From the NCBI GenBank assembly GCA_964523375.1, contig CAZFYG010000004.1, forward strand, positions 13,652 through 77,651: 64,000 nt of DNA, given 5' to 3'. The position numbers and the translations under genes were made by a program. Every line of letters begins with the position of its first letter. The stretch's first letter is position 1. This stretch comes from an uncultured Gammaproteobacteria bacterium. Its GTDB lineage: Bacteria > Pseudomonadota > Gammaproteobacteria > Magnimaribacterales > D2472. The notes beneath the pieces were generated by a model that saw only the letters and a program-made list of their open reading frames with translations, had not been told where the DNA came from and made no database searches. Positions 8,692-53,976 of this stretch are shown here, in pieces.

Positions 8692-9399
8692 ATGACAAGA
8701 CATAGCAATAGAGATCCAAGTCAGCTTCGTGAAATAAAAATAGAAACTAATATAAATATTCATGCTGAAGGTTCTGTTCTCATATCGTTTGGAAATACAA
8801 AAGTTATCTGTACGGCGACTATTGAAAATAAAGTTCCTAGATGGATGAGGAATAGTGAAGAAGGCTGGGTTACTGCAGAATATGGAATGCTTCCAAGATC
8901 AACCAATGAAAGGATGGGTAGAGAGGCTGCCAGAGGCAAGCAAAGCGGTAGAACCCAAGAAATTCAAAGATTAATTGGTAGATCTTTAAGACAAGCAGTT
9001 AACTTAAAATATATCAAAGGAAAAACTATCAACATTGATTGTGATGTCATCCAAGCAGATGGTGGAACTAGAACTGCTTCAATTACAGGCGGGTGTATTG
9101 CTCTATTCTTGGCGCTAAAAAACCATCACAATGATAATAGAGCTATAAAATCTTTTGTTGCTGCGGTCTCACTAGGTATTCTTAATAATGAAGTAATTCT
9201 AGATTTAGATTACATTGAAGATAGCTCTGCAGAGACAGATCTTAATCTAGTGATGACTGATGACCTAAACTTAATCGAGATTCAGGGAACTGGTGAAGAA
9301 AACCCCTTTACCAAAGATCAATTATCTAAAATGATTGAAGTAGGCAGTAACGCAATTGAGGAGTTAATAGTTCTACAAAAATCTAGCCTAGAGCAGTGA
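8692..9399 (+). CDS. rph: Ribonuclease PH
   Basis: HAEGSVLISFGNTKVICTA and DCDVIQADGGTRTASITG. Conserved rph-pyrE pairing. Confidence 0.9.
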   Translation: MTRHSNRDPSQLREIKIETNINIHAEGSVLISFGNTKVICTATIENKVPRWMRNSEEGWVTAEYGMLPRSTNERMGREAARGKQSGRTQEIQRLIGRSLRQAVNLKYIKGKTINIDCDVIQADGGTRTASITGGCIALFLALKNHHNDNRAIKSFVAAVSLGILNNEVILDLDYIEDSSAETDLNLVMTDDLNLIEIQGTGEENPFTKDQLSKMIEVGSNAIEELIVLQKSSLEQ

Positions 9400-10034
9400 A
9401 AGCCTATCAAGAAAAATTTCTAAAAATAGCATTATCCACCGAAGCATTGGAGTTTGGTGATTTCACTCTCAAATCAGGCAGAAAAAGCCCATATTTTTTC
9501 AATGCTGCAAAAATGCTTAAAGGTGGGAGCATATCTGAACTTGCCTTGTGTTATGTAGAAGCTATTAAAGATAGAGGTTTAGATTTTGATAGTATCTATG
9601 GTCCAGCATACAAAGGAATATTTATAGGTTCTATTGTAGCTATGCATTTTAGTCAAAGTGGAATTGAATACCCCTTATCTTTTAACAGAAAAGAAGTGAA
9701 GGATCATGGAGAAGGCGGTAACATAATTGGTCCCAAGCCAGATGGCAATATTCTTATAATTGACGATGTTTTGTCCGCTGGGACTGCTGCAAAAGAGTCT
9801 ATAGAGATTATTAAAAAAAATGGTGGAGTGCCTAAATTTTTTGTTATTGGTCTTGATAGGCAGGAAAAAGGAAGCTCTAGCCTTTCTGCAAGAGTTCAGC
9901 TAGAGAGCGCTTATGGTGTATCTGTTGTTTCAATAGTAAATTTGGATACGCTTATTTCTTTTACTAATAAAAGTTCTGAATATCAGAAATATCTAATAGA
10001 GCTTCAGAATTATAGAGAGCTTTGGGGCGCATAG
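9396..10034 (+). CDS. pyrE: Orotate phosphoribosyltransferase
   Basis: PRPP-binding loop ILIIDDVLSAGTA. GTG start overlaps the rph stop (GTGA). Confidence 0.9.
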   Translation: MKAYQEKFLKIALSTEALEFGDFTLKSGRKSPYFFNAAKMLKGGSISELALCYVEAIKDRGLDFDSIYGPAYKGIFIGSIVAMHFSQSGIEYPLSFNRKEVKDHGEGGNIIGPKPDGNILIIDDVLSAGTAAKESIEIIKKNGGVPKFFVIGLDRQEKGSSSLSARVQLESAYGVSVVSIVNLDTLISFTNKSSEYQKYLIELQNYRELWGA

Positions 10035-18826: not shown

Positions 18827-20080
18827 CTATTTATTGAATATTTTCTTGTCTAACAAACCTTCTGATTCAGCTACAATGCATGCAACCGCAGCATCCCCTG
18901 TTACATTCACAGAAGTTCTTAGCATATCAAGAATTCTATCTACAGCTAAAATAATTCCTATTGCCTCAAGAGGTAAACCAAATTGTTGAAGAATGAGTAC
19001 TAAAGTTATCGTTCCAGCTGAGGGAACGGCAGCAGCCCCGATAGAGGCAACAACTGCTAAAATAATAACCTGTATATACTGAATTAAGGTTAAATCAATA
19101 CCAGACATTTGCGCTATAAATATAGTAGCCATACCTTGCATAATAGCTGTTCCATCCATATTTATTGTTGCTCCCACAGGAACGACAAATGAAGCTACAT
19201 TTTTATCAACACCAAGATCATTTTGAACTGTTTTAAGGGTTACAGGAATTGTTGCAGCACTGGATGATGTTGAAAATGCAAAAATAGCAACATCTTTCAT
19301 TTTTATGAAAAAAGTTTTTATGCTTATGGAAGTGAAAAGCTTAAGTAATAATGTATAAGTTATAAAGGCATGAAGTAATAACACCAATATTAGCAGAATG
19401 ACATATTTGAAAGCTTCTTGAAAAACATCAAGCCCATCAACTATTACAAATTTACCTATTAAACAGAAAACGCCAATTGGAGCAAATGAAATTATAGTTA
19501 TAACCAACTGCATAAATACTGTATTTAACTTTTCAAAAGATTCGCTAAAATTATTAGTAAGATGATTTGTCTTGTTTAGAGCTAAGCCAAATAAAATACT
19601 AAAAAAGACTACAGCGAGCATTTCGTTATTAGCCATGGCCTGAATAATATTTGATGGAAATATATTTACTATTGTCTCAAAAACACCTTGGCCAGGCGGA
19701 AGGCTTTCTGGAGCAATAGATATCTCTGAATTGTAGCCAGCCCCTGGTTTAAAAATTGACCCAATAACTAGCGAGAGGGTAACAGCTATTGCAGTTGTCG
19801 ATAGATATAAGGCGATGGTTTTTGTAGTTATCTTTCCCAAGCTGTTTAAGTTGCTTAAAGAAGAGATACCTGACACTAAAGAGAAAAAAATTAGAGGAAC
19901 TATTAGCATCTTCAGAAGGTTTATAAATATTGTACTTCCAAGCAAAAATACATACTTCTCAACAAAAGATGAAATTTGATCACCGAATAAATTAGTGTAG
20001 TAAAAAATAGCTCCCACAACAAAGCCAGCAAACATTCCAATAAGAATATTACGCGTTAGGTTGGTTGGAGCATCTATCAT
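18827..20080 (-). CDS. Dicarboxylate/amino acid:cation symporter (DAACS family)
   Basis: SSSAATIPVT, GATINMDGTA and DRILDMLRTSVNVTGDA. Confidence 0.85.
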   Translation of the reverse strand: MIDAPTNLTRNILIGMFAGFVVGAIFYYTNLFGDQISSFVEKYVFLLGSTIFINLLKMLIVPLIFFSLVSGISSLSNLNSLGKITTKTIALYLSTTAIAVTLSLVIGSIFKPGAGYNSEISIAPESLPPGQGVFETIVNIFPSNIIQAMANNEMLAVVFFSILFGLALNKTNHLTNNFSESFEKLNTVFMQLVITIISFAPIGVFCLIGKFVIVDGLDVFQEAFKYVILLILVLLLHAFITYTLLLKLFTSISIKTFFIKMKDVAIFAFSTSSSAATIPVTLKTVQNDLGVDKNVASFVVPVGATINMDGTAIMQGMATIFIAQMSGIDLTLIQYIQVIILAVVASIGAAAVPSAGTITLVLILQQFGLPLEAIGIILAVDRILDMLRTSVNVTGDAAVACIVAESEGLLDKKIFNK

Positions 20081-20250
20081 TACATCTCTATCATATCAAA
20101 ATCTTCCTTACCAACGCCACACTCAGGACATAACCAATCTTCTGGCACATCTTCCCATTTTGTTCCCGCCTCTATTCCATCTTCAGGCCAACCTAGTGCC
20201 TCATCATATATAAGCCCACATACAATGCATTCCCATTTTTTTAATTCCAT
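20080..20250 (-). CDS. Rubredoxin (56 aa; below the 60-aa cut-off of the ORF track)
   Basis: Hand translation of the minus strand gives [56 protein letters not shown]. It carries both CxxCG knuckles (CIVCG, CPECG) and the conserved aromatic residues. The TAA stop shares 1 nt with the symporter ATG (TAATG). Confidence 0.85.
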
Positions 20251-27429: not shown

Positions 27430-27840
27430 CTAAATTAGGGGGAGGCTATTGTGTCTCCACTCAGATATTCCACCACTAAGTATTAAAGAGTTTTTAAACC
27501 CTGATTTTTGGAGCATCTCGCCAGCATTACCTGCTTGATTTCCCATTTCACAAACTAGAATTATTGATAAATTATTCTTATTGGGTAATTCATGATGTCT
27601 TTTTTCAAAATCAGCAAATGGTATATTGACAGCTCCAGCAATATGACCAGCATTAAACTCATCTGACTTTCTAATATCAACAAGCTTTGCAAGGCCTTTG
27701 TTATTAAGGTTAATTAGCTCATGGGTTGAAATTTTTTTACCACCTTTTTTTGAAAGAGAAGATAAGAAAAGACTAATAAAAATAACTAATGGAATGGTAA
27801 GAAACCACTGCTCATATAAAAATGAAAAAAACTCTAACAT
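27430..27840 (-). CDS. Membrane-anchored rhodanese-domain protein
   Basis: An N-terminal hydrophobic helix is followed by a rhodanese-like domain (DIRKSDEFNAGHIAGAVNIP; active-site-like loop CEMGNQAG). Confidence 0.65.
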   Translation of the reverse strand: MLEFFSFLYEQWFLTIPLVIFISLFLSSLSKKGGKKISTHELINLNNKGLAKLVDIRKSDEFNAGHIAGAVNIPFADFEKRHHELPNKNNLSIILVCEMGNQAGNAGEMLQKSGFKNSLILSGGISEWRHNSLPLI

Positions 27841-29853: not shown

Positions 29854-29929
29854 GCCCAGATAGCTCAGTCGGTAGAGCAAAGGATTGAAAATCCTTGTGT
29901 CGGTGGTTCGATCCCACCTCTGGGCACCA
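29854..29929 (+). tRNA. tRNA-Phe (anticodon GAA), CCA encoded
   Basis: Hand-folded cloverleaf: acceptor GCCCAGA/TCTGGGC, D stem GCTC/GAGC, anticodon stem AAGGA/TCCTT with loop TTGAAAA, T stem GGTGG/CCACC with loop TTCGATC, and 3' ACCA. Confidence 0.95.
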
Positions 29930-29930
29930 T

Positions 29931-30134
29931 TTATTTAAACCACTTGTAAGGCTTATCCCCAGCTACTTTAAAATAGATAGCCATATTAGTTATGTGAGTT
30001 ATTATAAGGGTTAAGGAAATACCTAAAGCCCAATAAATATTTCTAAAGTTTTGATGGGCATCAACTAAAAATAATAAAGCTACTACTGATAATGTGAATA
30101 CTCCTATTGGTAAAAACGCATTTAAGTTTTTCAT
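29931..30134 (-). CDS. Small (67 aa) two-helix membrane protein, unknown function
   Basis: Two hydrophobic segments (FLPIGVFTLSVVALLFLV; WALGISLTLIITHITNMAIYF). The start forms an ATGA overlap with the ferredoxin stop, which suggests co-translation. No family recognised. Confidence 0.4.
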   Translation of the reverse strand: MKNLNAFLPIGVFTLSVVALLFLVDAHQNFRNIYWALGISLTLIITHITNMAIYFKVAGDKPYKWFK

Positions 30135-30454
30135 TTTTTCTCCTTTTTTTGATTTAAATCTATCTCTACTTCTATATCTGAAATTAACTCACTTTGGCAA
30201 GCCAATATAAAGCCCGCATCTAATTCTTCTTTTTTCAAGGTATAGCTAAAGTCGATATTAGGTTTTATCTTCCCTGAAATAATTTTACATTTGCATGTGC
30301 CGCAGCTACCCACCTTACATCTATGCGGCCAATCCACACCCTCTGATAAAGCTGAAGAGAGCAGAGTTTTGGCGGGTAAAACATCGAAGCCTATGTTGTT
30401 GCTGAGGAGTTCTGCTCTCCTGGGTACTTTCTTCTTTCTAAAAATACTAAGCAT
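30131..30454 (-). CDS. Plant-type [2Fe-2S] ferredoxin, stand-alone domain (107 aa)
   Basis: Cys ligand pattern C-x4-C-x2-C-x31-C (HRCKVGSCGTCKCKI ... ILACQ). The start lies 1 nt after the alkB-like stop. Confidence 0.8.
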   Translation of the reverse strand: MLSIFRKKKVPRRAELLSNNIGFDVLPAKTLLSSALSEGVDWPHRCKVGSCGTCKCKIISGKIKPNIDFSYTLKKEELDAGFILACQSELISDIEVEIDLNQKKEKK

Positions 30455-30455
30455 G

Positions 30456-31607
30456 TTAAGAGGCTATTGGTGCTAAAGAGGAAGTATCCTCATTAAATTT
30501 ATTCGCAATAGATCTTTCCTCTTCGGTCGCATAATTCTTATCCCAATTGTCTAGATGTTTTTGAACAAATTTTTTGAATAATGGTGGATATAAAGTTAAT
30601 ACAAAAAGAGTGAAATAACCTATTCCATAATTAGGCCCCCCTACATCATCGAGCTCCCAAAAATAAGTCTCACCTCTTACATGATGGTCGCACTGTCTTC
30701 CGATCTCAATAAAAAACCAGCTGGTAAAAACTGAATCATTATCCCATGAGTGCCTGTGCTCAACAGGCCCATCTTTTCTTATCAAACCATAGTGGCCCAT
30801 GAAATTTAAAGCTTCTAAGAGGAAGTTTGATAAAATCCAAACTGTTGCCAATGCAAGCAGTCCAATTACTCCTCCAGACCAAACAAATAGAAATATAGAA
30901 GGTAGGCTGTATAAATATCCAAGCAACCATCTGTTGTCTTTGTTTATAAAACTCTTACCTTGATTTTTAAGCTTCTTAGCTTCCATATCAAATGAAAATT
31001 TTGATTGGCCAGCATGAGAAAGCCAAGTATGTAAGTACACATTTCTTCCCCTCGGTGCTGTAGCTGGATCATCTTCGTGACCTAGGTCTAAGTGGTGATT
31101 GTATACATGAGCGTAAGTGAAATGTGACGCCCCACTTAAAGCCATAATTAATCTTGAAACAAAAAATCCCTCTTTTTTATTGTGGGATAGTTCATGCCCA
31201 TAAATAATTCCAAGCCCAGCCCATAAACCCGAAGATATAATGGCACCTATGAGATTAATGCCTGATATTCCATTTTGATATTCAATTGGTCCTAGAGATA
31301 AATTCTGCAAGATTGCTCCAGAAGTATATTGGTATAGTCTCCAAGCTAAAAAAACCTGTATGGTAACGAAGACTGGCAACATCACATACATTACAAGATA
31401 TTGAAAAAACTTAATACCATAAGAGTTTCCATTATTGTCCACCTCAGCCTTGAGATGAATATCTTTCGTTAAAGTATCTATTATGGTGTAAAGGCCAAAT
31501 AGTATTACTCCTGTCCAGGCATAAGTGCTACCAAGAAATATCCCAAAAATGGTTATTATTGATGACACTGGAACAATTAGGTACCTTGCATTTATATAAA
31601 ACTTCAT
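30456..31607 (-). CDS. AlkB-family integral-membrane di-iron hydroxylase (alkane 1-monooxygenase/XylM-like)
   Basis: His boxes HELSH and HVYNHH, the AlkB-specific NFMGHYGL motif, HRHSWD, and a third box reading RQCDHH. AAGGAG Shine-Dalgarno 8 nt upstream. Confidence 0.8.
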   Translation of the reverse strand: MKFYINARYLIVPVSSIITIFGIFLGSTYAWTGVILFGLYTIIDTLTKDIHLKAEVDNNGNSYGIKFFQYLVMYVMLPVFVTIQVFLAWRLYQYTSGAILQNLSLGPIEYQNGISGINLIGAIISSGLWAGLGIIYGHELSHNKKEGFFVSRLIMALSGASHFTYAHVYNHHLDLGHEDDPATAPRGRNVYLHTWLSHAGQSKFSFDMEAKKLKNQGKSFINKDNRWLLGYLYSLPSIFLFVWSGGVIGLLALATVWILSNFLLEALNFMGHYGLIRKDGPVEHRHSWDNDSVFTSWFFIEIGRQCDHHVRGETYFWELDDVGGPNYGIGYFTLFVLTLYPPLFKKFVQKHLDNWDKNYATEEERSIANKFNEDTSSLAPIAS

Positions 31608-31655
31608 AAGAAAATCTCCTTCTTAATAATCAATAAATCCTAGGGAATACATCTT

Positions 31656-31705
31656 CCGTTTTAGCACTTTCTTTTAAATCGCGGCAATAGGATCAAATTA
31701 CGATT
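31656..31705. repeat. Direct repeat copy 1 (50 bp, identical to copy 2)
   Basis: The sequence ccgttttagcactttcttttaaatcgcggcaataggatcaaattacgatt was read directly. The identical string recurs 107 bp downstream. Confidence 0.95.
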
Positions 31706-31762
31706 AAGCAAAACATAACAAACAAAATCAGTTTGCAGTGTTAAATCCATGGAATGGTAGTA

Positions 31763-31812
31763 CCGTTTTAGCACTTTCTTTTAAATCGCGGCAATAGGAT
31801 CAAATTACGATT
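31763..31812. repeat. Direct repeat copy 2 (50 bp, identical to copy 1)
   Basis: Same 50-mer as 31656-31705. Short flanking similarity (aaatcc..ggaat) lies just upstream of both copies. Confidence 0.95.
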
Positions 31813-31891
31813 TGAGTATTAAACTTGATAATAATATTTTTGTAAATACTAATACTTGAAAAAATATTAATTAATTTGTAAGTTACTTAAC

Positions 31892-50716: not shown

Positions 50717-51565
50717 TTATAGCTTTGGAAATAACATAGGTGTTGATTTCTGATAGGTCTTATATTCTTCTAAATGACCCCATTTCTTATACCCTCTTGA
50801 TTCAAGCATTCTTACTCCGCTCACATAAACTAAAAGTATGTATGTGAAGATGGGTGAGATGAGGGTTATATATTGAAGCCCTTGTAAAGAAGAAAATGAC
50901 ATCAATGCTACGGCTAACCATAGAACTATTTCGCCAAAGTAGTTTGGATGTCTTGATTTAGCCCATAAACCAGTGGTAATAAATTTATCTCTATTCTCAG
51001 GAATTGCTCTAAATTTTGATTTTTGCTTATCAGCAACTATTTCAGTACAAAATCCATATATGAATAAACCAAGGCCTATATAAAATAATGCGTTTACAGA
51101 GACGCCTGTATCTGACGAGATAGCTGTTAAGGCACACATTGAGCATAAAGAGACCCAAAGCCCTTGAAGAGTCCATGTCATAAAAAACTGGGTTGCTGAA
51201 GGTTTGATGGTTCTGAACCTCTTATCCTCTCCATCTTTATGAACTCTCATAAACAAAAAACTTCCAAGCCTTAGCGCCCATAAACTAATGAGAAAGACTA
51301 GGGCAATGTTTGCACCATTTAAATTTGAAAAATTATTAGATGAGAAATACAAAGAAAACCACATTACTGTTAAATAAGTGATGCTGCCCATTAGGTCGTA
51401 AAATTTTTCTGTTTGAAATACGTAAGCAGGGATAAATGCAATCCATTGCATACAAAATGCAATTATTACAGCCTTAACGACCAAATCTAACCCGGTTCCA
51501 TTTGCTATAAACAATGCGACAAGGAAAACAGCTAAGGAGATTAATATATTTATAACTTTATTCAT
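50717..51565 (-). CDS. DUF1295 polytopic membrane protein (steroid-5-alpha-reductase/ICMT-like superfamily)
   Basis: C-terminal KSRHPNYFGEIVLW motif and multiple TM helices. The start at 51565 (MNKVINIL) forms an ATGA overlap with the peptidase stop. Confidence 0.65.
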   Translation of the reverse strand: MNKVINILISLAVFLVALFIANGTGLDLVVKAVIIAFCMQWIAFIPAYVFQTEKFYDLMGSITYLTVMWFSLYFSSNNFSNLNGANIALVFLISLWALRLGSFLFMRVHKDGEDKRFRTIKPSATQFFMTWTLQGLWVSLCSMCALTAISSDTGVSVNALFYIGLGLFIYGFCTEIVADKQKSKFRAIPENRDKFITTGLWAKSRHPNYFGEIVLWLAVALMSFSSLQGLQYITLISPIFTYILLVYVSGVRMLESRGYKKWGHLEEYKTYQKSTPMLFPKL

Positions 51566-53382
51566 GATTTGCTCCATCCGCATGATCTATTTTCATTTTG
51601 AATATCAAGCCAGTCTTTTAGAGGCTTATAATAATTAATTATAGACTGACCACTTAGTTCTTGGGTACCCGTTATTTCTTCAAAAGCATTCTGCCATGGG
51701 ACGCTATTTCCAAGAGCCATTGTCGATATAATTTTATCGCCAGCATCAGTATTCCCATAGATTGAACATTCATGAAGCAGCCCATCAAACCCAGACGAAT
51801 TACAAAGAGCTTCATGAAATTGATACTGCATAATTCTAGCAAGATAATATCTAGTATATGGTGTGTTGGCAGGAATATGGTATTTTGCACCTGGGTCAAA
51901 GCTCTCACTTGATCTAATATCAGGAGCTGATATTCCTTGATAGTAGTTTCTCATCTCCCACCAAGAATCATTTAAATCTTCATAAGCTGTCTCGCCTTTA
52001 AATACTCCTGCCCTCCATTTATCTAACATTAAGGCCCAAGGAACTACCACAACACCCTCTAAGGCCTGTTTCATTAAAAGGCCAATGGCATCATTTTTTG
52101 CCTCCTCTGCTTGATCTTGGCTAATAAAACCAATTTGTTTTAGGTAATCTGGAGTGATAGAAAGAGTTAATAAGTCACCAAAGGCCTCATGAAAACCATC
52201 ATTGGCTCCTGACCTGAATAGAGATGGCAAATGATTGTATGCTTGATAGTAAAAAATATGACCGAGCTCATGGTGAATTGTAGAAAAATCTTCTTCATTT
52301 TTTTCGATGCACATCTTAATTCTGAGATCATTATTTGCTGGGTCTAAGTTCCATGCAGAAGCATGACAGACAACAGATCTATCAAGTGGCTTAGTAAATA
52401 AAGACCTTTCCCAAAATGTTTCCGGTAATGATTCAAAGCCAATGGATAAAAAGAAATCCTCAGCTATCTCCACCATCTCTATTTCGCTTAGGTTTTTTTC
52501 TAATATTATGTTGGTGACATCATAAGAGCTATCGCTTGAATCTACCTCATACACAATGTCATATATATTTGACCAAGATTGGCCCCACATATTTCCTAAA
52601 AGATGAACAGGAATTGGCCCAGAAATATCAACAATATCATCGCCATATTCCTGATTCAACTTATCTCTTACATGGCAATGAAGGGCATCATAAAGAGGCT
52701 TAACATCTTCCCACACGCCATCAATACTTCTTAAAAAATCTTCAGAAGGCATGTCGTACTTGCTGAACCAAAGATCTGATAAGTCTGCAAATCCTAAATC
52801 CTGAGCGCCTTGATTTCCTATCTCAACCATTCTCATGTATGGATCTTTCATAGCCTTACCCACCTCATGCCACCCTGTCCAAGCTCTTTTTAGCTGATCT
52901 GGATTTCTAGAATTATCAATAATAGATTCAAAACCCTCAAGATCATTACATTCATTCTCAGAATAACAATATTGCCCACTTCCATACGTTGCACTTAATT
53001 TTGTTTCTATCTTCGAAAGTTCAGAAGCAAGGTTTTCATCAAAAGGCGGCGGCATAACAAAGGCTGTTTTGAGAATTTCTAACTTTCTTCTATTTTCCTC
53101 AGAAGTGACGACATCATTAAAGGCGCTTGCATCTTTTGATTTCTGTAAAGCATCTAGAGTACTTCTTTTAGAATAATCAGAAAGCACCATCTGTGAATCA
53201 TGCGTTATGAAATTTGAGCTTATCCATGACGCTGAATAAATAATTGGATTTAAAGCTTCGTTATCCTGTTCTACTTTCTCAAGAAAGCTAATAAGTTCTT
53301 CATTTTGTACAGTTTGTTCGCTTGATTTGCTACAAGAAGTTACAATTGAGAAAGTAATAATAAATATAAATAATTTTTTCAT
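51562..53382 (-). CDS. Peptidyl-dipeptidase A, M2 family (angiotensin-converting-enzyme-like), predicted lipoprotein
   Basis: Zinc motif HHELGHIFYY plus downstream HEAFGDLL (the M2 HEXXH...EAxGD pattern). The start at 53382 has GAGG upstream. The signal ends in the lipobox-like IVTSC. Confidence 0.8.
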   Translation of the reverse strand: MKKLFIFIITFSIVTSCSKSSEQTVQNEELISFLEKVEQDNEALNPIIYSASWISSNFITHDSQMVLSDYSKRSTLDALQKSKDASAFNDVVTSEENRRKLEILKTAFVMPPPFDENLASELSKIETKLSATYGSGQYCYSENECNDLEGFESIIDNSRNPDQLKRAWTGWHEVGKAMKDPYMRMVEIGNQGAQDLGFADLSDLWFSKYDMPSEDFLRSIDGVWEDVKPLYDALHCHVRDKLNQEYGDDIVDISGPIPVHLLGNMWGQSWSNIYDIVYEVDSSDSSYDVTNIILEKNLSEIEMVEIAEDFFLSIGFESLPETFWERSLFTKPLDRSVVCHASAWNLDPANNDLRIKMCIEKNEEDFSTIHHELGHIFYYQAYNHLPSLFRSGANDGFHEAFGDLLTLSITPDYLKQIGFISQDQAEEAKNDAIGLLMKQALEGVVVVPWALMLDKWRAGVFKGETAYEDLNDSWWEMRNYYQGISAPDIRSSESFDPGAKYHIPANTPYTRYYLARIMQYQFHEALCNSSGFDGLLHECSIYGNTDAGDKIISTMALGNSVPWQNAFEEITGTQELSGQSIINYYKPLKDWLDIQNENRSCGWSKS

Positions 53383-53415
53383 TCTAATGACCTCTTCAAT
53401 TAAAATAACATAACT

Positions 53416-53976
53416 ATGAAAATTTCTACAAGCCAATTTAAAAATGGAACAAAACTTTTATTAGATGGAGTTCCTTGCTCGATCGTTAACCATGAGTTCC
53501 ACAAGCCTGGTAAAGGGCAAGCTGTAATGAGAGTTAAATATAAAAATCTTATAACTGGCAACACAAATGATAAAACATTTAAATCTGGAGAATCTGTTGA
53601 AACTGCAGATATTGATCATAAAGAGATGGAGTTTTTATACTCTGATGGTAATAGCTGGCATTTTATGGATTCTATTACATATGAGCAGATAGAGATTGGT
53701 GCTGAAGTCATGAAAGATGCAAAGAAGTGGCTTGTAGGTCAAGAAATATGCGAGGTTGTTACTTGGGATGATTTACCTATTTTGGTTGAGCCACCTATAT
53801 TTGTTGAGCTCACTATATCCAGATCAGAGCCTGGTGTTAAAGGGGATACTGTTTCGGGAGCAACAAAGCCCGCAGAGCTTGAAACTGGTGTAATTGTTAA
53901 TGTTCCTTTATTTGTTAATGAGGGCGAAAAGATCAAGGTCGACACCAGGACTGAGGAATACTCTAGCCGAGCATAG
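53416..53976 (+). CDS. efp: Elongation factor P
   Basis: FKNGTKLLLDGVPCSIVNHEFHKPGKGQAVMRVKYKNL, with the modified-Lys loop KPGKG. Confidence 0.95.
   Translation: MKISTSQFKNGTKLLLDGVPCSIVNHEFHKPGKGQAVMRVKYKNLITGNTNDKTFKSGESVETADIDHKEMEFLYSDGNSWHFMDSITYEQIEIGAEVMKDAKKWLVGQEICEVVTWDDLPILVEPPIFVELTISRSEPGVKGDTVSGATKPAELETGVIVNVPLFVNEGEKIKVDTRTEEYSSRA

What the first reader, a model, noticed from the sequence alone, without database searches (positions are those of the whole stretch)
29931..31607. AlkB-family hydroxylase operon with a stand-alone 2Fe-2S ferredoxin and a 67-aa membrane protein, abutting tRNA-Phe
Seen in sequence:
- Three minus-strand ORFs are tightly coupled. The hydroxylase stop is at 30456-58 and the ferredoxin start at 30454. 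The ferredoxin stop and the small-ORF start share ATGA at 30131-34.
- The last stop lies 1 nt from the 3' end of tRNA-Phe.
- The hydroxylase has AlkB hallmarks (HELSH, HVYNHH, NFMGHYGL, HRHSWD).
- Its third His box reads RQCDHH, with Gln where canonical AlkB (LQRHSDHH) has the first His.

Established knowledge:
- Canonical AlkB is fed by rubredoxin (AlkG) plus a reductase (AlkT).
- XylM/CymAa relatives use a fused ferredoxin-FNR reductase.

Here only a 107-aa plant-type ferredoxin domain (C-x4-C-x2-C-x31-C) is present. There is no FNR module, and no reductase anywhere in the 64 kb. The only rubredoxin is 10 kb away in an unrelated operon.

Inference: this is a variant electron-transfer architecture, plus an uncharacterised small membrane subunit, retained in an otherwise stripped-down genome. 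The substrate is unknown.
Basis: partly seen in the sequence, partly recalled or inferred. Interest (0 to 1): 0.6.

Follow-up and report, generated by a model that had tools for sequence, protein, structure and literature searches.

The report
SAM-controlled AlkB-like oxygenase cassette
A three-gene membrane oxygenase unit that databases call an alkane hydroxylase sits behind riboswitches for the methionine-derived cofactor SAM in many abundant ocean bacteria, which points to a role in sulfur or methionine supply rather than in eating hydrocarbons.

Summary
Three tightly coupled minus-strand genes encode an AlkB-related di-iron hydroxylase, a 2Fe-2S ferredoxin and a 67-aa two-helix membrane protein, ending next to tRNA-Phe in a SAR86-type genome. 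The Gln-for-His change in His box 3 is real and marks this clade.

Two identical 48-nt SAM-II-type riboswitch aptamers lie in tandem upstream of the hydroxylase.

- The cassette occurs in 56 genome loci from several phyla, with the hydroxylase 61-95% identical.
- All 53 loci that have upstream sequence carry a SAM riboswitch. It is the SAM-II-like variant in 45, SAM-I/IV in 7, and both in 1.
- In metagenomes the same aptamer variant also precedes metH, homocysteine methyltransferase genes and metY.
- metY lies next to the cassette in 10 loci. An OmpW-type hydrophobic-solute porin follows it in 7.

The cassette therefore belongs to the methionine regulon.

Best reading: a SAM-repressed, ferredoxin-fed oxygenase that frees methanethiol or sulfide from a small hydrophobic organosulfur compound, with dimethylsulfide the leading candidate. 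The substrate is inferred, not shown.

This is a new variant of a known enzyme kind. Surveys currently count such "alkB" genes as marine alkane-degradation genes.

The parts
31744..31821 (-). Distal SAM-II-like riboswitch aptamer. It has P1, the AUUUG third strand, the AUUGC/GCUAAA pseudoknot, a short P3 hairpin and a P2a 3' strand.
   Evidence: Rfam SAM_alpha RF00521 scores 27.0 bits over the full model (E 2.8e-4 in the local scan), below the gathering score of 36. An exact 48-nt repeat of the core is shown.
31706..31735 (-). Hairpin CAAAC-UGAUUUU-GUUUG plus a U-rich tail between the two aptamers. It may be a weak intrinsic terminator serving as the expression platform of the distal aptamer.
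   Evidence: It folds at -7 kcal/mol (z -1.8). The four other SAR86 tandem loci have hairpins of different sequence at the same place. The terminator scan did not call it because the stem is too A+U-rich. This part is inferred.
31636..31714 (-). Proximal SAM-II-like riboswitch aptamer. P1 starts at 31705, the P3 hairpin is GGAAG..UUCC, and the P2a 3' strand UAGGAUU lies at 31636-31642.
   Evidence: Rfam SAM_alpha scores 30.3 bits over the full model (E 3.6e-5 local, 0.0066 for the whole window).
31616..31622 (-). Shine-Dalgarno sequence GAAGGAG of the hydroxylase gene, 8 nt before the ATG.
   Evidence: Read directly from the sequence.
30456..31607 (-). AlkB-related membrane di-iron hydroxylase, 383 aa. 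Eight of the nine AlkB ligand histidines are kept and Gln305 replaces the first His of box 3.
30131..30454 (-). Stand-alone plant-type [2Fe-2S] ferredoxin, 107 aa, inferred to be the dedicated electron donor.
   Evidence: Pfam Fer2 E 8.4e-15. The best NCBIfam matches are to ferredoxin domains of oxygenase reductases. It follows the hydroxylase in 53 of 56 loci, and the motif WPHxCKVGSCGTCKC...LACQS is conserved.
29931..30134 (-). 67-aa protein with two predicted transmembrane helices and the conserved motifs AH..YR and THM.NM.IYFK..G..PYKWFK. Inferred to be a membrane subunit of the oxygenase.
   Evidence: No family match. Present in 52 of 56 loci at 35-88% identity, and placed upstream of the hydroxylase in L028, L029 and L032.
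29854..29929 (+). tRNA-Phe (GAA), a convergent neighbour that marks the end of the cassette. It is SAR86-lineage synteny, not part of the function.

Best explanation
Shown:
- The unit is a three-gene cassette spread by horizontal transfer and highly conserved: an AlkB-related membrane di-iron monooxygenase, a dedicated [2Fe-2S] ferredoxin and a small two-helix membrane protein.
- In the SAR86-type genome of this window it is preceded by two tandem SAM-II-type aptamers.
- It belongs to the SAM/methionine regulon in several phyla.

Inferred:
- The riboswitches are OFF switches, as are all known SAM-II, SAM-V and SAM-I/IV elements. The cassette would then be made only when SAM, and hence methionine, is scarce. 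The distal aptamer probably acts through a weak terminator and the proximal one on translation.
- Electrons pass from NAD(P)H through a housekeeping ferredoxin reductase encoded elsewhere, then through the ferredoxin to the di-iron site.
- The enzyme hydroxylates a carbon next to sulfur in a small hydrophobic organosulfur compound. The unstable product releases methanethiol (or sulfide) plus an aldehyde.
- O-acetylhomoserine sulfhydrylase (MetY) then turns the thiol into methionine or homocysteine.
- The leading substrate candidate is dimethylsulfide (DMS -> methanethiol + formaldehyde).

My separate estimates are: membership of the SAM/methionine regulon about 0.9, a sulfur-supplying role about 0.5, DMS specifically about 0.25.
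For: Regulation:
- Two full-length SAM_alpha matches lie in the leader.
- The nucleotides that contact SAM in SAM-II/V are invariant in 47 aligned aptamers: the UUU third strand, AUUGC, and U and AAA of GCUAAA (compared with PMC6061858).
- P1 covaries, with AU<->GC in 7 sequences and AU<->UA/CG in 8. The observed covariation score was reached by 0 of 500 shuffles.
- A P2a-like pairing after an inserted hairpin is present in 101 of 107 distinct aptamers.
- All 53 genome loci with upstream sequence have a SAM riboswitch before the cassette. 45 have this SAM-II-like variant, 7 have SAM-I/IV, and L053 has a more canonical SAM-II plus SAM-I/IV. Four SAM-I/IV examples were scored by Rfam above its gathering score (50-64 bits against 41.1); the others were found with nhmmer.
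- In 80 metagenome loci found with the exact aptamer motif, the next ORF is the hydroxylase in 34-35. It is MetH or a homocysteine S-methyltransferase-domain protein in 33 and MetY in 4.

Genomic context:
- metY lies next to the cassette in 10 of 56 loci, in two different arrangements. In Kangiella it is divergent and followed by a metX-like/homoserine dehydrogenase fusion. In eight Acidimicrobiales loci it is co-directional.
- An OmpW/AlkL-type porin follows the cassette in 7 loci. In L053 and L056 it has its own SAM-I/IV riboswitch.
- A bacterial globin gene is inserted in the operon in L047; L048 and L049 show the same gap between hydroxylase and ferredoxin.

Enzyme:
- AlkB is the closest solved relative.
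- The three genes travel together.

Ecology:
- A 2026 review states that SAR86 and SAR11 lack sulfate assimilation and depend on reduced organic sulfur. It lists only DmoA, DdhA, DsoB and Tmm as DMS-consuming enzymes (PMC13360808).
Against: - No substrate evidence exists. The link to sulfur rests on regulation and neighbourhood only.
- From my own knowledge of Pseudomonas AlkB chemistry, thioethers are oxidised mainly at sulfur, giving sulfoxides. That would not release a thiol.
- DMS crosses membranes readily, so a dedicated porin is not obviously needed.
- No formaldehyde-detoxification gene is conserved beside the cassette.
- metY and OmpW are adjacent in only a minority of loci.
- Whether hosts such as Kangiella or Porticoccaceae lack sulfate assimilation was not tested.
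- The two window aptamers score below Rfam's gathering threshold. SAM binding and the OFF direction are inferred.
- How the proximal aptamer reaches the Shine-Dalgarno sequence, 14 nt downstream of P2a, is unresolved.
- The structure model is of low confidence (pLDDT 57.6), so nothing can be said about the substrate channel.
Confidence: 0.5

Rival explanations
1. It is what the databases say: an alkane 1-monooxygenase used to grow on hydrocarbons such as cyanobacterial alkanes, with a ferredoxin in place of rubredoxin.
For: - The sequence and fold are closest to AlkB.
- JGI names close homologs alkane 1-monooxygenase.
- OmpW-family porins include AlkL of alk operons (own knowledge), and one follows the cassette in 7 loci.
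- Recent surveys count alkB genes of SAR86, Porticoccaceae and Woeseiaceae as alkane-consumption genes (PMC13488336, PMC10176705).
Against: - SAM riboswitches of two unrelated classes control the cassette in 53 of 53 loci. The same aptamer variant controls metH and metY. This has no rationale for carbon catabolism.
- No alcohol or aldehyde dehydrogenase, rubredoxin, or AlkS-type regulator is conserved nearby.
- NCBIfam has no match at all.
- One of the nine metal-ligand histidines is replaced, and conserved Glu residues of box 2 and the HYG motif are lost.
- Identity to AlkB-like relatives outside the clade is 39% or less.
Confidence: 0.1
2. It is a SAM-sparing membrane-lipid or cofactor-modifying enzyme. 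When SAM is short, an O2-dependent desaturase or hydroxylase replaces or compensates for a SAM-consuming modification.
For: - The Pfam family is FA_desaturase.
- Ferredoxin-dependent acyl-lipid desaturases are well known (own knowledge).
- Gln in place of the first His of box 3 (QxxHH) is typical of front-end fatty-acid desaturases (own knowledge).
- The outgroup P0128 sits beside KAS III and MMPL genes.
- Control by an OFF switch for SAM fits induction under SAM shortage.
Against: - The protein aligns with AlkB, not desaturases, through the AlkB-specific NYxxHYGL and HSW(D/N) motifs.
- Linkage to metY, metX and a SAM-controlled OmpW porin points to uptake and assimilation, not lipid remodelling.
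- No lipid-synthesis gene is conserved next to the cassette.
- I know of no precedent for such a swap.
Confidence: 0.12
3. It is an oxidative demethylase that serves the methyl-group side of methionine synthesis, or acts on methylated osmolytes. It would release formaldehyde for the folate pool or prepare a methyl donor, rather than supply sulfur.
For: - The same riboswitch variant controls MetH and betaine-homocysteine-methyltransferase-like genes.
- Rieske oxygenases, whose best but sub-threshold NCBIfam match in L031 is GbcA, lie beside the cassette in several loci. The one in L031 has its own SAM-I/IV riboswitch.
- AlkB and the related MocD are known to demethylate ethers oxidatively (own knowledge).
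Against: - One-carbon units are normally abundant from serine and glycine, so SAM-level control would be odd.
- Quaternary amines are hydrophilic, which fits poorly with a membrane-embedded AlkB-type site and an OmpW-type porin.
- Adjacency to metY and metX points to the sulfhydrylation step.
Confidence: 0.13
4. The leader repeats are not SAM sensors. They would be a conserved leader of some other kind, or a SAM-II-derived aptamer with a changed ligand, so the methionine link would be spurious.
For: - Both window copies score below Rfam's gathering threshold (30.3 and 27 bits against 36).
- The aptamer sequence is almost invariant, so P2 offers no covariation.
- A hairpin is inserted that canonical SAM-II lacks.
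Against: - All positions that contact SAM are kept (PMC6061858).
- The variant precedes metH and metY in metagenomes.
- Other lineages place a bona fide SAM-I/IV riboswitch, scoring above threshold, before the same cassette.
- P1 covaries.
Confidence: 0.05

Closest known systems
AlkB alkane 1-monooxygenase (Pseudomonas putida GPo1 type; solved structures 8sbb and Fontimonas thermophila AlkB-AlkG 8f6t)
   Same: - Membrane di-iron enzyme of the FA_desaturase superfamily.
- Six predicted transmembrane helices.
- HELxH, HxxxHH, NxxxHYGL and xxxHH motifs.
- About 30% identity over residues 113-351.
   Different: - The first His of box 3 is Gln.
- The Glu of EHxxGHH is Ala, and the Glu of NYxEHYG is Gly.
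- The partner is a [2Fe-2S] ferredoxin, not rubredoxin.
- There is an extra conserved 67-aa membrane protein.
- Control is by SAM riboswitches, not by an alkane-responsive regulator.
- No NCBIfam match.
Ferredoxin-linked AlkB-like enzymes: XylM with XylA, and AlkB-like proteins fused to ferredoxin and FNR domains
   Same: The nearest relatives outside the clade (30-39% identity) include Fer2-hydroxylase, Fer2-FNR-hydroxylase and hydroxylase-Fer2-FNR fusions. Plant-type ferredoxin is therefore the usual donor in this branch.
   Different: - Here the ferredoxin is a separate 107-aa protein, and no FNR module is encoded in any of the 56 loci.
- Gln in box 3, the small membrane protein and the riboswitch are absent from those relatives.
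[quoted passage not shown]
   Same: - H-type pseudoknot with P1, a U-rich third strand, AUUGC/GCUAAA pairing and a P2a pairing.
- Found before methionine genes in marine bacteria.
- The tandem arrangement recalls the Pelagibacter bhmt leader (PMC2704228, PMC6061858, PMC11508383).
   Different: - A variable hairpin is inserted between the GCUAAAA strand and the P2a 3' strand, which keeps scores below the Rfam threshold.
- The two window aptamers share an identical 48-nt core rather than belonging to two classes.
- The commonest regulated gene is an oxygenase, not a methionine-synthesis enzyme.
DmoA/DmoB dimethylsulfide monooxygenase (Hyphomicrobium)
   Same: It catalyses the proposed reaction, DMS + O2 + reductant -> methanethiol + formaldehyde. 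This is a functional analogy only.
   Different: DmoA is a soluble FMNH2-dependent enzyme and is unrelated in sequence and fold. The cassette protein is a membrane di-iron enzyme. No activity data exist for the cassette.
AlkL/OmpW outer-membrane channels of alk operons
   Same: An OmpW-family gene follows the cassette in 7 loci (Pfam E 1e-39 to 1e-41). This resembles alkL beside alkB.
   Different: - In L053 and L056 the porin gene has its own SAM-I/IV riboswitch.
- It is absent from the window and from most loci.

Membership tests
AlkB alkane 1-monooxygenase family | FA_desaturase-superfamily membrane domain with significant similarity to solved AlkB | tested here: met
   Pfam PF00487 E 3.6e-22. 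8sbb_A E 1e-24 and 8f6t_A E 6e-18. 8f6t is the only significant fold hit (E 2e-5), though from a low-confidence model.
AlkB alkane 1-monooxygenase family | All nine metal-ligand histidines: HELxH, EHxxGHH, NYxEHYG and LQRHSDHH | tested here: not met
   Eight are kept. The first His of box 3 is Gln305 in every clade member and His in the other 121 nearest representatives. The Glu residues of box 2 and of the HYG motif are also replaced.
AlkB alkane 1-monooxygenase family | Rubredoxin (AlkG) plus rubredoxin reductase (AlkT) as electron donors | tested here: not met
   The conserved partner is a Fer2 ferredoxin. The only rubredoxin in the window is 10 kb away beside a symporter gene. No reductase was found.
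AlkB alkane 1-monooxygenase family | Recognised by a curated alkane monooxygenase model | tested here: not met
   No NCBIfam family matches at E <= 1.
AlkB alkane 1-monooxygenase family | Terminal hydroxylation of n-alkanes | not testable with these tools
   This needs an enzyme assay.
SAM-II riboswitch | P1 helix supported by covariation | tested here: met
   Columns 2:32 and 3:31 show changes on both sides (AU<->GC in 7, AU<->UA/CG in 8). The observed covariation score was reached by 0 of 500 shuffles, and slid controls are far lower.
SAM-II riboswitch | Triplex and pseudoknot nucleotides that contact SAM: UUU third strand, AUUGC, GCUAAA | tested here: met
   These are invariant in 47 of 47 aligned aptamers. 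They correspond to U8-U10, A18-C22 and U47-A50 of the SAM-V structure (PMC6061858).
SAM-II riboswitch | P2a pairing between the P1 loop and the sequence 3' of GCUAAA | tested here: met
   GAUCCUA pairs with UAGGAUU (Actinobacteria: GCCU with AGGC or GGGC) in 101 of 107 distinct aptamers. A variable hairpin is inserted before the 3' strand.
SAM-II riboswitch | Score above Rfam's gathering threshold | tested here: not met
   30.3 and 27.0 bits against 36. Related loci score 30-35 bits.
SAM-II riboswitch | Located upstream of methionine or SAM metabolism genes | tested here: met
   The same aptamer variant precedes metH or homocysteine methyltransferase genes (33 loci) and metY (4 loci).
SAM-II riboswitch | Selective binding of SAM over SAH | not testable with these tools
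   This needs in-line probing or ITC.
Plant-type [2Fe-2S] ferredoxin | Fer2 domain with four cluster cysteines (C-x4-C-x2-C-x~30-C) | tested here: met
   Pfam Fer2 E 8.4e-15. C46, C51, C54 and C86 are conserved in 52 orthologs.
XylM/XylA-type or fused ferredoxin-FNR AlkB systems | FNR (FAD_binding_6 + NAD_binding_1) module fused to or encoded beside the ferredoxin | tested here: not met
   It is present in the relatives P0137, P0192 and P0222. It is absent from the window cassette and is not a conserved neighbour in the 56 loci.
DmoA-type DMS monooxygenase | Flavin-dependent luciferase-like fold | tested here: not met
   The protein is FA_desaturase/AlkB-like. Any likeness would be in the reaction only.

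The most novel reading that the evidence does not exclude
The cassette is a previously unrecognised membrane-bound monooxygenase for dimethylsulfide or other methylthio-ethers. It would make methanethiol for MetY and give sulfate-non-assimilating bacterioplankton (SAR86, marine Acidimicrobiia, OCS116, Porticoccaceae and others) a route from DMS to methionine. Pelagimyophage-like viruses also carry a relative of the hydroxylase gene. If true, this would be a major missing biological DMS sink. It would also mean that part of the marine 'alkB' gene pool has been misread as alkane degradation.
Probability: 0.25. Interest if true: 0.95.

Novelty: new variant of a known kind. Interest (0 to 1): 0.8.

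Why it matters
- **Abundance and annotation.** The exact window protein occurs in 361 blocks of the public assembly collection. Its clade is found in SAR86, Porticoccaceae, Woeseiaceae, OCS116, marine Acidimicrobiales and others. Such genes are annotated as alkane 1-monooxygenase, and alkB genes of these taxa are counted in budgets of the ocean's short-term hydrocarbon cycle. Control by SAM riboswitches argues that this clade serves methionine or sulfur economy instead, so those inferences would need revision.
- **An open question becomes testable.** How do sulfate-non-assimilating bacterioplankton other than SAR11 obtain reduced sulfur, and which enzymes consume DMS in seawater? Reviews from 2026 list only DmoA, DdhA, DsoB and Tmm, and call bacterial DMS degradation poorly characterised. 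Kangiella carries the cassette and is culturable.
- **Enzymology.** This is a natural AlkB-type site with a Gln ligand, a split-off ferredoxin and an obligatory small membrane partner.
- **RNA biology.** This is a hairpin-inserted SAM-II variant, here in tandem, whose commonest target is an oxygenase.

Tried and rejected
- **Whole-leader MFE fold.** It was uninformative (z +0.35) because the structure is pseudoknotted. I used alignment-based pair counts instead.
- **Promoter and terminator scan.** It called nothing useful in the A+U-rich leader.
- **Database search with the 67-aa protein.** It returned only 3 near-identical hits. Its conservation had to be shown by tblastn on fetched loci.
- **Structure prediction.** The shallow alignment allowed (23 sequences of at least 75% identity) gave a poor model (pLDDT 57.6). 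It served only to confirm AlkB as the sole fold match, and no pocket analysis was attempted.
- **P0121 (54% identity, Gln in box 3).** Its short contig shows no riboswitch motif by eye and no ferredoxin gene. It is 66% identical to the phage-borne form.
- **P0128, the best full-length relative outside the clade (34% identity).** It lies in a lipid-type neighbourhood without a ferredoxin gene, so partner sets cannot be carried over from outgroups.
- **Mobile island at tRNA-Phe.** I rejected this as a general feature, because the tRNA adjacency is SAR86-lineage synteny only.
- **Literature.** Nine searches found no paper linking SAM riboswitches or DMS to AlkB-like genes. The library lacks most subscription journals, so prior work cannot be excluded.
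Full report
**1. What is in the window**

- Hydroxylase: 30456-31607, 383 aa.
- One base separates its stop from the ferredoxin start.
- Ferredoxin: 30131-30454, 107 aa.
- An ATGA overlap at 30131-30134 joins the ferredoxin gene to the small ORF.
- Small ORF: 29931-30134, 67 aa. Its stop lies 1 nt from the convergent tRNA-Phe at 29854-29929.

Pfam assigns FA_desaturase (E 3.6e-22) to the hydroxylase and Fer2 (E 8.4e-15) to the ferredoxin. The 67-aa protein matches nothing, and NCBIfam has no model that matches the hydroxylase at all.

The window has 34.6% G+C. Near-identical copies lie in SAR86 MAGs, and mutY-yggX gene order flanks the cassette. The rubredoxin at 20080-20250 is real but sits beside a Na:dicarboxylate symporter. 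I found no FNR-type or rubredoxin reductase in the genes within +-10 kb or in 20 further window ORFs.

**2. The enzyme and its clade**

The closest solved relatives are AlkB 8sbb (E 1e-24, residues 113-351) and the AlkB-AlkG fusion 8f6t. An AlphaFold model built from the shallow alignment I was allowed to use is poor (pLDDT 57.6). It shows six long helices in AlkB-like order, and its only significant PDB match is 8f6t (E 2e-5).

An exhaustive search of 1.84 billion cluster representatives shows that the clade is isolated. One full-length relative has 54% identity (P0121), and the rest have 39% or less.

In an alignment with 123 full-length representatives, eight of the nine AlkB ligand histidines are invariant. 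Position 305 is Gln only in the query, P0121 and P0122, and His in the other 121. All 120 close homologs and 53 of 53 genome-locus copies read (E/A)IGRQ(C/G/A)DHH. The box-3 Gln is therefore a clade signature and not a common AlkB variant.

From my own knowledge, QxxHH in the third box is typical of front-end fatty-acid desaturases, so Gln at this position has a precedent in the superfamily.

Among the relatives at 30-39% identity are fusions of the hydroxylase to Fer2 alone (P0132) and to Fer2 plus FAD_binding_6 and NAD_binding_1 (P0137, P0192, P0222). Supply by ferredoxin is thus normal for this branch. What is particular here is a free ferredoxin and no FNR module.

**3. Conservation of the three-gene unit**

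A scan of one genome per species found 56 loci with the hydroxylase at 61-95% identity. The hosts are:
- SAR86, Porticoccaceae/HTCC2207, cultured Kangiella, Woeseiaceae and Halieaceae;
- Alphaproteobacteria (OCS116, MED-G09, Rhodobiaceae, Hyphomicrobiales);
- Acidimicrobiales and Microthrix-like Actinobacteria;
- MAGs labelled Marinimicrobia and Flavobacterium.

Identity of 70-75% between phyla implies horizontal spread under strong constraint.

The ferredoxin follows the hydroxylase in 53 loci and the small ORF is present in 52. Of the four loci without a small-ORF hit, three are cut by contig ends, and only L023 has room without a hit. In L028, L029 and L032 the small ORF sits upstream of the hydroxylase instead.

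The small protein has two hydrophobic helices and the conserved motifs W-T, LY, AH..YR, WA and LL.THM.NM.IYFK..G..PYKWFK. The ferredoxin keeps WPHxCKVGSCGTCKC...LACQS. Outside these three genes the flanks differ between lineages.

**4. The leader: tandem SAM-II-type riboswitches**

The 285-nt leader contains two identical 48-nt repeats at 31656-31703 and 31763-31810, with 0 matches expected by chance. Each repeat is part of a full-length match to Rfam SAM_alpha (SAM-II), at 30.3 and 27.0 bits. This is below the gathering score of 36. The E-values are 3.6e-5 and 2.8e-4 in the local scan, and 0.0066 and 0.052 against the whole window and all families.

Across loci the element is highly conserved.
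- In a 47-sequence alignment, the positions that form the SAM pocket in the SAM-II/SAM-V fold are invariant. These are the UUU third strand, AUUGC, and U and AAA of GCUAAA (structure description in PMC6061858).
- P1 covaries, with AU<->GC in 7 sequences and AU<->UA/CG in 8. The observed covariation score was reached by 0 of 500 shuffles, and slid controls are far lower.
- The sub-threshold score has a structural explanation. A variable-length hairpin (GGAAG..UUCC in the window, much longer in Kangiella) is inserted between GCUAAAA and the strand UAGGAUU. That strand pairs with the P1-loop segment GAUCCUA. This is the P2a element of canonical SAM-II, displaced by the insert.
- The P2a pairing is present in 101 of 107 distinct aptamers. 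In Actinobacteria it changes on both sides, to GCCU with AGGC or GGGC.

**5. Why the aptamers are SAM sensors and the cassette is a methionine-regulon member**

Three independent lines support this.

(a) Riboswitch class replacement.
- Loci that lack the SAM-II-like leader have a SAM-I/IV riboswitch before the cassette. Rfam scores above its gathering score of 41.1 were obtained for L028 (58 bits), L047 (51) and L032 (50.5). L053 (64 bits) also has a more canonical SAM-II plus a terminator.
- nhmmer extends the SAM-I/IV assignment to L029 and L048-L050.
- In total, 53 of the 53 loci with upstream sequence have a SAM riboswitch before the cassette. 45 are SAM-II-like, 7 are SAM-I/IV, and 1 has both.

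(b) Shared regulon. I scanned metagenome contigs with the exact aptamer motif. The first ORF downstream is:
- the hydroxylase in 34-35 loci;
- a homocysteine S-methyltransferase-domain protein in 33, including full-length MetH (NF007024, 1972 bits against a cut-off of 1497);
- MetY in 4 (TIGR01326, 650 bits against 495).

(c) Neighbourhood.
- metY is adjacent in 10 of 56 loci, in two arrangements. In Kangiella it is divergent and followed by a metX-like/homoserine dehydrogenase fusion. In eight Acidimicrobiales loci it lies directly upstream on the same strand, with its own SAM-I/IV riboswitch detected in seven of them and a terminator (seen in the upstream sequences) before the cassette's aptamer.
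- An OmpW-family porin gene follows the cassette in five Porticoccaceae loci and in L053 and L056. In the last two it has a separate SAM-I/IV riboswitch.

**6. Mechanism**

Shown: the anatomy above.

Inferred from the behaviour of all known SAM-II, SAM-V and SAM-I/IV riboswitches: SAM binding switches expression off, so the cassette is made when SAM is low.
- The distal aptamer is followed by a hairpin and a U-rich run (31706-31735). The other four SAR86 tandem loci have hairpins of different sequence at the same place (-6 to -9 kcal/mol, z -1.4 to -2.3). This is weak evidence for termination control.
- The proximal aptamer ends 14 nt before the Shine-Dalgarno sequence, so translational control is likely, but the pairing that would mediate it is unresolved. 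In Actinobacterial loci, CCUCCUAG at the P3/P2a junction is the exact complement of the CUAGGAGG ribosome-binding site (sequences, my reading).

For the proteins I infer that a housekeeping NAD(P)H:ferredoxin reductase reduces the ferredoxin. The ferredoxin would then reduce the di-iron site of the hydroxylase, with the 67-aa protein as a membrane subunit of unknown role.

**7. What reaction?**

This is inference only. The clues point to a small hydrophobic sulfur compound that is converted into a thiol MetY can use:
- a SAM-repressed oxygenase;
- an AlkB-type intramembrane site;
- linkage to direct sulfhydrylation genes (metY, metX);
- a SAM-controlled porin for hydrophobic solutes;
- an operon-embedded globin in one lineage.

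Hydroxylation of a carbon next to sulfur gives a hemithioacetal, which falls apart to thiol plus aldehyde. For dimethylsulfide this is the DmoA reaction, yielding methanethiol and formaldehyde.

SAR86 and SAR11 are reported to lack sulfate assimilation. Reviews from 2026 list only DmoA, DdhA, DsoB and Tmm as DMS consumers and call marine DMS degradation poorly characterised (PMC13360808; PMC13352529).

Against this reading:
- Pseudomonas AlkB is known to sulfoxidise thioethers (own knowledge).
- DMS is membrane-permeant.
- No formaldehyde-handling gene is linked to the cassette.
- Linkage to metY and OmpW holds in a minority of loci only.

Other methylthio compounds, or methanethiol itself (giving sulfide), fit equally well.

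**8. Rivals**

- A true alkane hydroxylase, which is the current annotation and the assumption in surveys (PMC13488336, PMC10176705). This cannot explain SAM control by two riboswitch classes or the shared regulon.
- A SAM-sparing lipid-modifying enzyme.
- An oxidative demethylase serving the methyl side of methionine synthesis. Neighbouring Rieske oxygenases, whose best but sub-threshold NCBIfam match in L031 is GbcA, hint at this. The L031 copy has its own SAM-I/IV riboswitch.

The last two remain possible at roughly 0.1-0.15 each. That the leader is not a SAM sensor is unlikely.

**9. Novelty and verdict**

The hydroxylase is an AlkB relative, but it fails several defining AlkB features: the nine-His site, the rubredoxin partner, recognition by a curated model and the alk-type context. 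It comes with a fixed new partner set and a new regulatory context. I file it as a new variant of a known kind.

I found no paper connecting SAM riboswitches or DMS with AlkB-like genes in nine searches. The library is incomplete, so earlier work cannot be ruled out.

Interest is high for three reasons:
- The gene is very abundant in the surface ocean.
- It is currently read as a hydrocarbon-cycle marker.
- It offers a directly testable route to an open question in marine sulfur cycling, with a culturable host (Kangiella).

Noticed in passing
L181-L184 (IMG/VR viral contigs), e.g. L182 4998-6065: Four viral contigs carry a 355-aa relative of the hydroxylase. It is 55% identical to the window protein and 66% to P0121, and reads EIGRQADHH, AHCYNHH and NYLEHYGL. 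The gene lies between the major capsid gene and downstream structural-looking ORFs (not annotated) of a T4-like myovirus. That virus's capsid protein is 82% identical to that of Pelagibacter phage Mosig EXVC030M. The gene has its own promoter-like site and no riboswitch. No ferredoxin gene or small ORF lies in the held flanks, and no cultured phage has the gene. It looks like an auxiliary metabolic gene.
   Followed up: partly
L031 7726-8895 (-) with SAM-I/IV at 9328-9408 (-); related copies in L037, L122, L135; distant ones in L047-L049: In a SAR86 genome, a Rieske oxygenase with its own SAM-I/IV riboswitch fills the slot between the cassette and tRNA-Phe. Its best NCBIfam match is GbcA, far below the cut-off. 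This is a second SAM-controlled oxygenase of unknown substrate.
   Followed up: partly
L053 7778-7865 and 7905-8579; L056 961-1045 and 1088-1762: An OmpW-family outer-membrane protein gene directly after the cassette has its own SAM-I/IV riboswitch. I am not aware of a SAM-regulated porin for hydrophobic solutes.
   Followed up: partly
L047 7202-7561 (the same gap occurs in L048 and L049): A 119-aa bacterial globin gene (Pfam Bac_globin, E 9e-15) is inserted between the hydroxylase and ferredoxin genes in Rhodobiaceae-like MAGs.
   Followed up: partly
L062-L141 (metagenome loci), e.g. the ORFs after the aptamer in L085, L080 and L129: The same SAM-II-like aptamer variant precedes stand-alone proteins of 297-367 aa that have a homocysteine S-methyltransferase domain. 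They are below all NCBIfam equivalog cut-offs. They may be methyl-donor-specific homocysteine methyltransferases of marine Gammaproteobacteria.
   Followed up: partly
window 20080-20250 (-): An orphan rubredoxin gene lies between a Na:dicarboxylate symporter gene (18827-20080) and the ubiC/ubiA pair. The window holds no rubredoxin reductase and no other obvious client enzyme.
   Followed up: partly
window 27430-27840 (-): A single-domain rhodanese (sulfurtransferase) gene lies about 2 kb from the cassette, beyond mutY-yggX. The Pfam assignment comes from a near-identical contig. No link to the cassette was tested.
   Followed up: no
window 51562-53436 (-): A 624-aa peptidase M2 (angiotensin-converting-enzyme family, Pfam E 2e-198) is encoded in this streamlined bacterial genome.
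   Followed up: no
L023 6001-7110 and downstream: This is the only genome locus with room downstream that shows no ferredoxin or small-ORF hit after the hydroxylase, although the SAM-II-like leader is present. I did not examine it further.
   Followed up: no
L003 7772-8700 and L052: In some SAR86 relatives, about 1 kb holding DUF2141 and DUF2306 genes is inserted between the cassette and tRNA-Phe. This junction is therefore a variable slot.
   Followed up: partly
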